Source: Escherichia coli (GTDB lineage Bacteria; Pseudomonadota; Gammaproteobacteria; Enterobacterales; Enterobacteriaceae). Taken from it: a stretch of 49,226 bases of DNA. This document shows positions 6,001-9,000 of the stretch, one piece after another. Made by a program: the position numbers. The stretch lies in the NCBI RefSeq assembly GCF_003334765.1, contig NZ_QOWT01000030.1; one strand, given 5' to 3'. Every line of letters begins with the position of its first letter. The stretch's first letter is position 1.

Positions 6001-9000
6001 TTATGCTGAACCGTTGCTAGCGCTTGAAGCCTCCGTTGAGGCGTTGAGCGAGAAAGTGGCCGAGCATTTGCGGGCGATGGGGCTGGAGTGGTGATGGTGG
6101 ATTTAATGGTGAATGAGCAACGGTCGAGTACGGCGGGGAAAGATGTGCCTGCGGGGTATAAACTGACTGAGGTGGGCGTGATTCCTGAGGATTGGGATTG
6201 CGTACCATTTGGTAATCTGTTTAAAACAAACACAAAGAAAAAAAAAGTCAGCGATTATGAGCTAGTTTCATTTATTGGGATGCAGGATGTTAGTGAAGAT
6301 GCACAATTAAAAAATAATACTCAACTTCCTTTTAAAGAAGTTAAAAGTGGTTTTACTTACTTTGAAAAAGGGGATGTTTTATTAGCTAAAATAACCCCTT
6401 GTTTTGAAAATGGAAAAGGATGTCATACCGCTGATTTACCTACTAATGTAGGTTTTGGGAGTACGGAATTTCATGTATTAAGGGAAAATGAAGACTCCGA
6501 TTCTCGCTTCATCTATTTTTGGACAACTGATAAAAAATTCAGAGCATCACTGGAATCTGAAATGGTGGGAAGTGCGGGACACCGTCGTGTGCCGCTAGTT
6601 GCTATAGAAAAATATTTGATTCCATGTCCCCCAAATTTGCAAGAGCAAAGTGCTATTGCTGATTCATTATCTGATATTAATAATTTTATTCTAGCTCTAG
6701 AAAAGCTTATCGTTAAAAAACAAGCCATTAAAACCGCTACTATGCAGCGACTACTGACTGGTAAAACCCGTTTGCCACAGTTTGCGTTGCGCAAAGATGG
6801 CTCTGCTAAGGGATATAAAAAGAGCGAGTTGGGGGAGATTCCTGAAGATTGGGTAGTCACAAGCATTGGACAATTTACTGACTGCTGTGCTGGTGGAACT
6901 CCGAGTACTAAAATTTCAGCATATTGGGGAGGAACTCATCCTTGGATGAGTTCCGGCGAATTACACCTAAAACAGGTGTATGCTGTAGCCGATTATATAA
7001 CCGACGAAGGGCTTGTTAACTCCAGTACAAAGTATGTGCCTAAAAATTCTGTATTAGTCGGATTGGCAGGACAAGGAAAGACTCGAGGGACTGTAGCAAT
7101 TAATCGCATTGAATTATGTACTAATCAGTCTATTGCTGCGATTTTCCCCAGCAAACATCATTCCACAGAATTCCTGTTCTATAACCTCGACAGTCGTTAT
7201 GAGGAACTGAGAAGTTTATCTACTGGTGATGGGGGGCGTGGTGGGTTGAATCTTACTATTATCAGGAAATTACATCTTGCATTTCCGCCAAAAGAAGAAC
7301 AAACCGCCATCGCCACCATCCTCTCCGATATGGACAAGGAAATTCAGACCCTGCAACAGCGTCTGGACAAAACCCGTCAGCTTAAACAGGGGATGATGCA
7401 GGAGTTGTTAACCGGGAAAACCCGCTTAATATAAAAGGGAAACCTATGGCCTATGACTACAGCGCCAGCCTCAACCCGCAAAAAGCCCTGATCTGGCGTA
7501 TCGTCCATCGGGACAATATCCCGTGGATTCTGGATAACGGGCTGCACTGCGGCAACAGTCTGGTGCAGGCGGAAAACTGGATCAATATCGGCAACCCGGA
7601 GCTGATCGGCAAGCGTGCCGGGCATCCGGTACCTGTCGGAACGGGCGGGACACTGCATGACTATGTGCCGTTTTATTTTACCCCCTTCTCGCCAATGCTG
7701 ATGAACATCCACAGCGGGCGCGGCGGCATTAAGCGACGCCCCAATGAGGAGATCGTTATTCTGGTCAGCAACTTGCGGAACGTGGCAGCACACGACGTGC
7801 CCTTCGTGTTTACCGACAGCCATGCTTACTATAACTGGACCAACTACTACACCAGTCTGAATAGTCTGGACCAGATCGACTGGCCCATTTTGCAGGCACG
7901 GGACTTTCGCCGCGATCCAGACGATCCGGCTAAATTTGAACGCTATCAGGCAGAGGCGCTAATCTGGCAACACTGCCCGATCTCTCTGCTGGATGGGATA
8001 ATTTGTTACAGCGAAGAGGTCAGGTTACAATTAGAACAATGGCTGTTTCAGCGTAATCTAACAATGTCCGTTCACACACGGGCTGGATGGTACTTCTCAT
8101 GATCACATATACACAAGGCAATTTACTGGACGCACCGGTGGAAGCTCTGGTGAATACGGTTAATACCGTCGGTGTCATGGGGAAAGGCATCGCGTTGATG
8201 TTTAAAGAGCGCTTCCCCGAAAATATGAAAGTCTATGCCCTCGCCTGCAAACAAAAGCAGGTGATCACCGGCAAAATGTTCATTACCGAAACCGGGGAAC
8301 TGATGGGACCGCGCTGGATTGTTAATTTTCCGACCAAACAGCACTGGCGCGCTGATTCCCGCATGGAGTGGATTGAAGATGGCTTGCAGGACTTACGCCG
8401 CTTTTTGATTGAAGAGAATGTGCAGTCCATCGCCATTCCACCACTGGGCGCAGGCAACGGTGGTTTGAACTGGCCGGACGTTCGGGCGCAGATTGAATCT
8501 GCCCTTGGCGACCTTCAGGACGTTGATATCCTGATTTACCAACCGACTGAAAAATACCAGAACGTTGCCAAAAGCACTGGCGTAAAAAAGCTCACTCCCG
8601 CCAGAGCCGCCATCGCTGAACTGGTGCGTCGCTACTGGGTATTGGGGATGGAGTGCAGCCTACTGGAAATCCAGAAACTGGCCTGGCTGTTACAACGCGC
8701 CATTGAGCAGCATCAACAGGACGATATCCTCAAACTGCGGTTTGAAGCTCACTATTATGGCCCCTATGCGCCCAATCTGAACCATCTGCTTAATGCGCTG
8801 GACGGCACCTATCTTAAAGCCGAGAAACGCATCCCGGACAGCCAACCGCTGGATGCGATCTGGTTTAACGATCAGAAAAAAGAACACGTTAATGCGTATC
8901 TGAACAACGAAGCCAGAGAGTGGCTACCTGCGCTGGAGCAGGTCAGCCAGTTAATTGACGGCTTTGAATCGCCGTTTGGTCTGGAGTTGCTGGCAACCGT

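What the first reader, a model, noticed from the sequence alone, without database searches (positions are those of the whole stretch)
6238..6246. A9 homopolymer inside the hsdS first target-recognition domain
A run of nine adenines encodes KKKK (TNTKKKKVSDYE) inside the AT-rich variable domain of hsdS. Tracts this long are slipped-strand mispairing hotspots. A 1-nt change would truncate HsdS and switch the system's specificity or activity, which is a possible phase-variation switch.
Basis: inference. Interest (0 to 1): 0.45.

Follow-up and report, generated by a model that had tools for sequence, protein, structure and literature searches.

The report
Lysine-coding A9 run in hsdS
A run of nine adenines that encodes lysines in the specificity gene of an E. 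coli restriction-modification/DarTG defence island is real and occasionally gains or loses a base, but it behaves like an ordinary fragile spot, not a dedicated on/off switch.

Summary
The A9 tract at 6238-6246 is real. It lies in frame (AAG AAA AAA AAA = KKKK) at the start of the AT-rich first target-recognition domain of hsdS. The gene belongs to the published RptR-RMS-DarTG2-M48 (RRDM) anti-phage island of E. coli.

The tract is no more than chance gives: 1 observed, 1.39 expected, 57 of 100 shuffles have at least one. It follows from a four-lysine run in a gene that uses AAA for 30 of 37 lysines. The lysine run is absent from homologous domains.

Of 71 complete E. coli genomes carrying this domain, 68 have A9. 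Three have A8, and all three are assemblies of one strain, NCTC86. None has A7 or A10. Seven of seven JGI metagenome contigs have A9.

In a 15-billion-protein collection, truncated products from A8, A7, A10 and A11 occur on 31, 22, 6 and 1 contigs. A9 alleles occur on more than 1,500. Half of the inspected variants sit in error-laden assemblies. Frameshifts at control sites are about as common: a C4 run in hsdM on 28 contigs, an A6 run in darG on 20.

A shift of one base stops HsdS at 55-56 residues with no recognition domain. That is loss of function, not a change of specificity.

Verdict: an ordinary slippage-prone codon run that causes sporadic pseudogenes. Programmed phase variation is not supported.

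The parts
6238..6246 (+). A9 homopolymer: three AAA lysine codons, preceded by AAG at 6235-6237
6094..7434 (+). hsdS, specificity subunit, 446 aa. The start ATG overlaps the hsdM stop.
   Evidence: The exact protein is on 267 contigs (P0025).
6226..6700 (+). AT-rich first target-recognition domain (TRD1); approximate limits
   Evidence: G+C profile. 100% identical over 571 bases in all 40 listed E. coli genomes, and >=99% in all 71 that carry it. Homologue alignment.
6263..6265 (+). TAG stop reached after a -1 shift (A8); product 56 aa
   Evidence: Annotated as a 56-aa hypothetical protein in NCTC86.
6258..6260 (+). TGA stop reached after a +1 shift (A10); product 55 aa
6280..7434 (+). In-frame ATG (Met63) and downstream ORF that annotation pipelines call as a 382/384-aa 'subunit S' in frameshifted genomes. 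No convincing Shine-Dalgarno sequence; function doubtful.
   Evidence: P0011 on 28 contigs, P0026 on 3 contigs
3377..3616 (+). rptR, small HTH repressor of the island
   Evidence: (PF24718)
3656..6094 (+). hsdM, 812 aa
7446..8102 (+). darT, DNA ADP-ribosyltransferase toxin
8099..9166 (+). darG, antitoxin glycohydrolase
9185..12280 (+). hsdR
12280..12996 (+). M48-family metallopeptidase, last gene of the island

Best explanation
The A9 run is an incidental by-product of a four-lysine stretch at the start of a horizontally acquired, AT-rich target-recognition domain, in a gene that strongly prefers the AAA lysine codon. Like any long homopolymer it is the weakest point of the gene for replication slippage. 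It occasionally loses or gains a base, which stops HsdS after 55-56 residues and so abolishes both methylation and restriction by this type I system. These events are sporadic loss-of-function mutations that persist in a few lineages. They are one of several routes by which the system decays, not a selected, reversible phase-variation switch.

Shown: the tract, its frame, the truncation products, its near-invariance among genomes, and the existence of rare A8 and A10 alleles.

Inferred: the mechanism (replication slippage), the low rate, and the null phenotype.
For: (1) The tract is within chance expectation for the window.
(2) hsdS uses AAA for 30 of 37 lysines. Given KKKK, a run of at least 9 A is expected about half the time.
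(3) In 26 homologous recognition domains (40-66% identical), the equivalent positions read SKKP, SKKH, SRKN, HRRT, QRQV and so on. The lysine run falls outside every invariant column.
(4) Of the 71 complete E. coli genomes carrying the domain, 68 have A9, 3 have A8, and none has A7 or A10. Isolate series that appear closely related all have A9: RIVM x4, SW0716 x3, JCH/GON x3, AH62/65, MLI114/121.
(5) Seven of seven JGI metagenome contigs have A9.
(6) Exact-peptide counts are A8 31, A7 22, A10 6 and A11 1 contigs. A9 alleles are on >=1000 + 222 + 78 + 267 contigs.
(7) Ten of 20 inspected A7/A8 loci carry other homopolymer indels within 6 kb, the signature of sequencing error.
(8) Control frameshifts in the same operon are as frequent: hsdM C4->C3 on 28 contigs and darG A6->A5 on 20 contigs.
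(9) Relatives of NCTC86 (CP019778, B-2207) keep A9 but have the system broken at a C4 run in hsdM instead. The SMRT methylome of CP019778 reports no type I motif. So the system decays by more than one route.
(10) The island has its own transcriptional control by the RptR repressor.
Against: Length variants are real, not only artefacts. A8 appears in three independent NCTC86 assemblies and on at least three haplotype backgrounds. A10 appears in metagenome assemblies from several studies with no other indel.

No +1 event was found at the A7 control in hsdM, against 6 contigs with A10. The tract is therefore measurably more mutable than shorter runs.

The tract meets the published in-silico criterion for a 'phase-variable' hsd gene: a mononucleotide run of at least 9 in the ORF (Atack et al., PMC7383803).

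Assembled consensus sequences cannot reveal minority subpopulations, so within-culture switching was not tested.
Confidence: 0.78

Rival explanations
1. Genuine contingency locus. The A9 tract is a selected, reversible ON/OFF switch for the type I system. Through polarity on darTG-hsdR it might also switch the whole defence island, giving mixed populations that trade phage defence against DNA uptake.
For: The tract meets the run-of-9 criterion used to call hsd genes phase-variable. Both -1 and +1 alleles exist in nature on several backgrounds. The frameshift lies early in the second gene of the operon, and translation of hsdS is coupled to hsdM.
Against: At least 96% of the assemblies counted, and 68 of 71 complete genomes, are A9. 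Isolate series that appear closely related do not vary. Variant counts equal those at the C4 and A6 control sites. The tract is not conserved in homologous domains and is not above chance. E. coli is mismatch-repair proficient, and I know of no homopolymer-driven contingency loci in it (own knowledge). No reversion event was observed. The island already has a dedicated repressor.
Confidence: 0.06
2. Transcriptional slippage, or ribosome sliding, on the A9 run. RNA polymerase adds or drops an A in a fraction of transcripts. This lowers the yield of full-length HsdS from the A9 allele, and partly rescues A8/A10 alleles, without any heritable change.
For: Runs of 9 A or 9 T are the length at which selection against slippage-prone runs in coding regions becomes evident in many bacterial genomes. 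An A9 run in Thermus dnaX yields about 50% shifted product (Baranov et al., PMC1088944). The physical effect is therefore likely to occur here to some degree.
Against: There is no evidence that it is used. No extended alternative-frame ORF exists: the shifted frames stop after 3-5 codons. The tract is not conserved. No RNA data are available. This explanation is compatible with the best explanation, as a side effect rather than a function.
Confidence: 0.12
3. All apparent length variation is sequencing or assembly error; the tract is biologically invariant.
For: Half of the inspected variant loci carry other homopolymer deletions. A7 (-2) calls occur only in Logan or recent long-contig assemblies and never in the RefSeq complete set. 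Errors at the A6 and C4 control sites are equally common.
Against: Three NCTC86 complete assemblies agree on A8, and one of them (LT601384.1) differs from the other two at two SNPs in the aligned 30 kb. Draft assemblies with short contigs, clean over 6 kb, also show A8 (L022, L024). A10 occurs in megahit-style metagenome contigs with no other indel (L026, L027).
Confidence: 0.04

Closest known systems
RRDM defence island (RptR-type I RMS-DarTG2-M48) of EPEC E2348/69, Zhang et al. 2025, Nucleic Acids Res (PMC12255303)
   Same: Same seven-gene order: rptR-hsdM-hsdS-darT-darG-hsdR-M48. The close relatives fetched here (L001-L005) carry the paper's DarG (WP_000634203.1) and M48 (WP_001122107.1) accessions. 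There is a TAGCTA/TAGCTG repeat upstream of rptR.
   Different: HsdS is a different allele: the paper uses WP_000228010.1, while the window allele is P0025. I did not check whether the EPEC allele carries the A9 tract. The paper does not discuss homopolymers or frameshifts (0 occurrences).
SSR-containing, putatively phase-variable hsdS genes (Atack et al. 2019/2020, FASEB J, PMC7383803); NgoAV-type poly-G hsdS (own knowledge)
   Same: A mononucleotide run of at least 9 inside an hsdS ORF, where a one-base change shifts the frame.
   Different: In the published cases that change specificity, the tract lies between the two recognition domains, so the short form keeps TRD1 (section 3.2). Here it lies before TRD1, so the short form has no recognition domain. 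The hosts described there are host-adapted pathogens with many SSR loci. The switching rates the paper cites for nine-base tracts are 1.8-13.5 x 10^-3, and its discussion cites Campylobacter jejuni for mononucleotide tracts. E. coli is not mentioned in the main text. Tract length here is nearly fixed among genomes.
Transcriptional-slippage-prone 9A/9T runs (Baranov et al. 2005, PMC1088944)
   Same: Same sequence class: A9 in the sense strand of a coding region.
   Different: Utilised cases have a conserved tract and a meaningful product in the alternative frame. Neither holds here.
EcoR124I/II type IC restriction-modification enzyme (closest solved structures)
   Same: HsdR matches only EcoR124 HsdR (E = 3e-35). 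HsdM matches the EcoR124II M subunit (1e-64) better than EcoKI M (1e-21). HsdS has the usual two-domain architecture.
   Different: The similarity is distant. HsdM has an extra C-terminal region of about 360 aa. darTG is inserted between hsdS and hsdR. Family IC membership was not tested (no complementation or hybridisation data).

Membership tests
Phase-variable (contingency) locus driven by a simple sequence repeat | Repeat tract inside the ORF or promoter whose unit length is not a multiple of three | tested here: met
   A9 in frame in hsdS. It meets the run-of-9 criterion of Atack et al..
Phase-variable (contingency) locus driven by a simple sequence repeat | Tract length differs widely among strains, with ON and OFF lengths both common | tested here: not met
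   68 A9 and 3 A8 (one strain) among 71 complete genomes. 7 of 7 metagenome contigs have A9. Variants make up no more than 4% of contigs counted in the large collection, no more than frameshifts at the C4 and A6 control sites.
Phase-variable (contingency) locus driven by a simple sequence repeat | High-frequency (about 1e-5 or more per generation), reversible switching within a clonal population | not testable with these tools
   Only consensus assemblies are available. Isolate series that appear closely related show no variation. No reversion was seen.
Phase-variable (contingency) locus driven by a simple sequence repeat | Tract conserved among homologues, or maintained by selection | tested here: not met
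   The KKKK run is absent from 26 homologous domains. The tract is expected from AAA codon preference.
Specificity-switching truncated HsdS (half-HsdS forming a symmetric recogniser) | The frameshift leaves one intact recognition domain plus a conserved region | tested here: not met
   The truncated products are 54-57 aa and end before TRD1. The Met63 ORF lacks the N-terminal conserved region and the start of TRD1, and has no clear ribosome-binding site.
Type I restriction-modification system | hsdM, hsdS and hsdR genes with the family's domains | tested here: met
   TIGR00497 hsdM (5e-84) and TIGR00348 hsdR (1e-163). Methylase_S domains and PDB S-subunit matches.
RRDM defence island | rptR + type I RMS + darTG2 between hsdS and hsdR + M48 peptidase | tested here: met
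   NCBIfam DarT (3e-78) and DarG (3e-135). Gene order. Paper description.
Programmed transcriptional slippage site | Conserved A/T run, with a functional product encoded in the shifted frame | tested here: not met
   The shifted frames terminate after 3-5 codons. The run is not conserved. Slippage itself was not tested, for lack of RNA data.

The most novel reading that the evidence does not exclude
The A9 tract is a low-frequency but genuinely reversible ON/OFF switch of a type I RM-DarTG2 defence island in E. coli, possibly reinforced by transcriptional slippage that makes the OFF alleles leaky. It would let lineages transiently drop the restriction barrier and, through polarity, lower DarTG and HsdR. 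The A8 and A10 alleles seen in NCTC86 and in gut metagenomes would then be switched-off phases rather than dead genes.
Probability: 0.06. Interest if true: 0.55.

Novelty: already known. Interest (0 to 1): 0.17.

Why it matters
If the tract were a true switch, it would be the first homopolymer-driven phase-variable restriction system I know of in E. coli. It would also add a stochastic layer to a defence island whose only described control is the RptR repressor. The evidence points the other way. The practical lessons are narrower:

(1) This site is a predictable place for frameshift pseudogenes, and for long-read homopolymer miscalls, in a defence island whose commonest HsdM protein alone is on at least 1,000 contigs.

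(2) In-silico 'run of 9 or more' rules for calling hsd genes phase-variable will over-call in mismatch-repair-proficient Enterobacteriaceae, unless tract-length polymorphism is checked against control sites.

Tried and rejected
(1) Scan of GTDB species-representative genomes for the tract flanks: no match, so no information from other species.

(2) Supplementary tables of Atack et al., to see whether this E. coli hsdS was listed: not held.

(3) Lee et al. 2012 (PNAS), for per-run indel rates in E. coli: not held. Only qualitative statements were obtained. The numerical rates in this report rest on my own recollection and are marked as such.

(4) The NCTC86 Type III paper gave no type I methylome information.

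(5) I first read the 31 + 22 + 6 + 1 truncated-peptide contigs as strong evidence of hypervariability. I rejected that reading after inspecting the loci and running control look-ups at the C4, A6 and A7 sites.

(6) Considered and rejected: specificity switching by a half-HsdS, because the truncation precedes TRD1.

(7) Considered and rejected: an RptR operator inside hsdS. There is one TAGCTA at 6383, but the count across the window is at chance level.

Full report
**Observation.** Window 6238-6246 is a run of nine A, bounded by G on each side. It is the longest homopolymer in the window. It lies in frame in hsdS: codons AAG AAA AAA AAA encode KKKK within TNTKKKKVSDYE. The mechanical ORF starts at 6088, but RefSeq annotation of near-identical genomes starts at the ATG at 6094, which overlaps the hsdM stop codon by one base. 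The tract sits about 15 bases inside the point where G+C falls from 48% to 29-35%, which is the start of the first target-recognition domain. One A9/T9 run in 49 kb is what chance gives: 1.39 +/- 1.72 are expected, and 57 of 100 shuffles have at least one.

**Context.** The genes are:
- rptR (3377-3616)
- hsdM (3656-6094, 812 aa)
- hsdS (6094-7434)
- darT (7446-8102)
- darG (8099-9166)
- hsdR (9185-12280)
- an M48 peptidase (12280-12996)

This is the RRDM defence island described in EPEC E2348/69. That island was shown to protect against several phages and to be repressed by RptR binding to TAGCTA repeats (PMC12255303). A TAGCTA/TAGCTG repeat lies at 3396-3412 in the window. By sequence, the closest solved relatives of HsdR and HsdM are the EcoR124 proteins. 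The rest of the window carries an aerobactin island that is common in E. coli.

**What a slip would do.** A8 gives a 56-aa product, stopping at TAG 6263-6265. A10 gives a 55-aa product, stopping at TGA 6258-6260. A7 gives 54 aa and A11 gives 57 aa. All of these end before any recognition domain, so the result is a null HsdS. Because the methyltransferase and the endonuclease both need HsdS (established knowledge of type I enzymes), both activities are lost. This is not a change of specificity. In the published cases where a truncated HsdS acquires a new specificity, the tract lies after TRD1. An in-frame ATG at 6280 (Met63) opens a 382/384-aa ORF that annotation pipelines call 'subunit S' in frameshifted genomes. 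That ORF lacks the N-terminal conserved region and the start of TRD1, and it has no clear ribosome-binding site.

**Is the tract a selected feature?** Twenty-six homologous recognition domains (40-66% identical) have variable residues at these positions: SKKP, SKKH, SRKN, HRRT, QRQV, IRKR and so on. The first invariant columns come ten or more residues later. hsdS uses AAA for 30 of its 37 lysines. With AAA at about 75%, a KKKK stretch yields a run of at least nine A about half the time. The homopolymer is therefore the expected by-product of a lysine run that is peculiar to this allele.

**Tract length in complete genomes.** TRD1 occurs in 71 of 5,426 complete E. coli genomes at 99% identity or better. 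All 40 listed rows are 100% identical over 571 bases. I repeated the search with the tract edited:
- The A8 query gave exact matches only in NZ_OZ489144.2, NZ_LR217818.1 and NZ_LT601384.1.
- The A10 query gave no exact match.
- The A7 query gave no exact match.

The identity bands of the three searches exclude A11. The tally is 68 A9 and 3 A8.

All three A8 records are assemblies of strain NCTC86. LT601384.1 differs from the other two at two SNPs in the aligned 30 kb, while the other two are identical there. I therefore take A8 in that stock to be real.

A fourth 'NCTC86' assembly (CP019778) and strain B-2207 keep A9 but have a C4->C3 frameshift in hsdM. The published SMRT methylome of CP019778 lists Dam, Dcm, one type II and one type III motif, and no type I motif. 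That fits an inactive system.

Series of isolates that share a naming series and near-identical chromosome lengths, which I take to be closely related, are all A9: RIVM x4, SW0716 x3, JCH/GON x3, AH62/65 and MLI114/121.

**Tract length in larger collections.** Seven of seven JGI metagenome contigs containing the flanks have A9. One of them is identical to the window over 5.1 kb. GTDB representative genomes have no match.

I then looked up the exact predicted truncation peptides in a 15-billion-protein collection. Contigs found per product:

| Product | Contigs |
|---|---|
| A8 truncated peptide | 31 |
| A7 truncated peptide | 22 |
| A10 truncated peptide | 6 |
| A11 truncated peptide | 1 |
| Full-length A9 alleles | >=1000 (capped), 222, 78 and 267 |

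I inspected 20 of the A7/A8 loci. Ten have further homopolymer deletions within 6 kb, one of them 24 indels. This is the signature of uncorrected long-read or 454 data. The other ten have the tract as their only indel.

Of the five A10 loci, two long ones (L026, L027) are otherwise clean, one (L028) carries a second homopolymer insertion, and two are under 700 bases. Their record names point to megahit-style and metagenome-scaffold assemblies.

On a haplotype map of hsdM plus TRD1, A8 occurs on at least three backgrounds, and each of those backgrounds also has A9.

**Control.** The same look-up for frameshifts at unremarkable sites of the same operon gave:

| Control site | Contigs |
|---|---|
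| hsdM C4->C3 | 28 |
| darG A6->A5 | 20 (all Logan) |
| hsdM A7->A6 | 4 |
| hsdM A7->A8 | 0 |

The commonest intact HsdM is on at least 1,000 contigs. Most of the A8 and A7 signal therefore cannot be told apart from sequencing error plus a few clonal pseudogene lineages. The one clear excess is in +1 events: 6 contigs at A9 against 0 at A7. That agrees with the tract being more mutable than shorter runs.

**Interpretation.** The tract is a real slippage-prone site, and rare A8 and A10 alleles do exist. However, every population-level hallmark of a contingency locus that I could test is missing:
- ON and OFF lengths are not both common.
- Closely related isolates do not differ.
- The tract is not conserved.
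- Frameshifts elsewhere in the operon are as frequent.

E. coli has MutSLH mismatch repair. Indel rates rise exponentially with run length, and loss of mismatch repair shifts the indel spectrum towards single-base changes in homopolymer runs. From memory of E. coli mutation-accumulation work (not retrievable here), an A9 run in a repair-proficient cell should change at roughly 1e-8 to 1e-7 per generation. That is orders of magnitude below the 1e-3 cited for nine-base tracts in the hsd survey.

The most likely account is an incidental lysine-run homopolymer that occasionally produces hsdS pseudogenes. The alternative hsdM frameshift in NCTC86 relatives shows that the system decays by other routes too.

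**Rival accounts.**
- *Transcriptional slippage on A9* is physically plausible, since 9A/9T is the length class analysed as slippage-prone. It would lower the yield of full-length HsdS and make A8/A10 alleles leaky. Nothing indicates that it is used: the shifted frames stop within five codons, and the run is not conserved. I rate it a side effect.
- *A true phase switch* keeps a small probability, because minority subpopulations cannot be seen in assemblies.
- *All variation is artefact* is unlikely, given the concordant NCTC86 assemblies and the clean draft and metagenome contigs.

**Verdict.** It is not supported as a phase-variation or specificity switch. The island and the phenomenon are both already known, so interest is low.

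Noticed in passing
window 4610-4613 (C4 in hsdM); L002-L005 and L038: Sublineages of Escherich's strain carry different inactivating frameshifts in the same restriction system. 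The NCTC stock assemblies have hsdS A9->A8. CP019778 and B-2207 keep A9 but have hsdM C4->C3. The hsdM C3 truncated peptide is on 28 contigs. The C run lies next to a GATC site, so some of these may be systematic long-read errors.
   Followed up: partly
window 3396-3412: Direct repeats TTTAGCTA-ATTTAGCTG lie upstream of the small HTH gene. They match the TAGCTA operator described for the RptR repressor of the RRDM island.
   Followed up: partly
window 3656-6094 (HsdM residues about 450-812): HsdM is 812 aa, whereas solved HsdM proteins are about 500-540 aa and align only to residues 1-450. The C-terminal extension of about 360 residues, rich in charged residues, has no match in PDB sequences or in the Pfam marks seen.
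   Followed up: no
L005 (CP019778) 10400-13340 versus L002-L004: About 130 substitutions are clustered in the Ag43/YeeR region between two 'NCTC86' assemblies, and the gene content differs beyond 30 kb. This suggests recombination between paralogous islands, misassembly, or non-identical stocks.
   Followed up: no
window 7231-7236: A G6 run (encoding GDGGRGG) lies in the second recognition domain of the window's hsdS allele. It is a second, shorter homopolymer in the same gene.
   Followed up: no
window 6760-7330 versus L005 20620-21200: Two hsdS alleles share an identical TRD1 but have unrelated TRD2. The window type is 446 aa and is on 267 contigs. The common type is 444 aa and is on at least 1,000 contigs. 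This is domain shuffling, the usual way type I specificity diversifies.
   Followed up: partly
window 20000-32000: Aerobactin (iucA-D, iutA) island, 99.8% identical to O55:H7 and O145 E. coli chromosomes. The defence island is therefore part of a larger mosaic genomic island.
   Followed up: no
L032 (metagenome contig OAUP01000357.1): This contig is identical to the window over 5,153 aligned bases, including the window-type TRD2 and the A9 tract.
   Followed up: no
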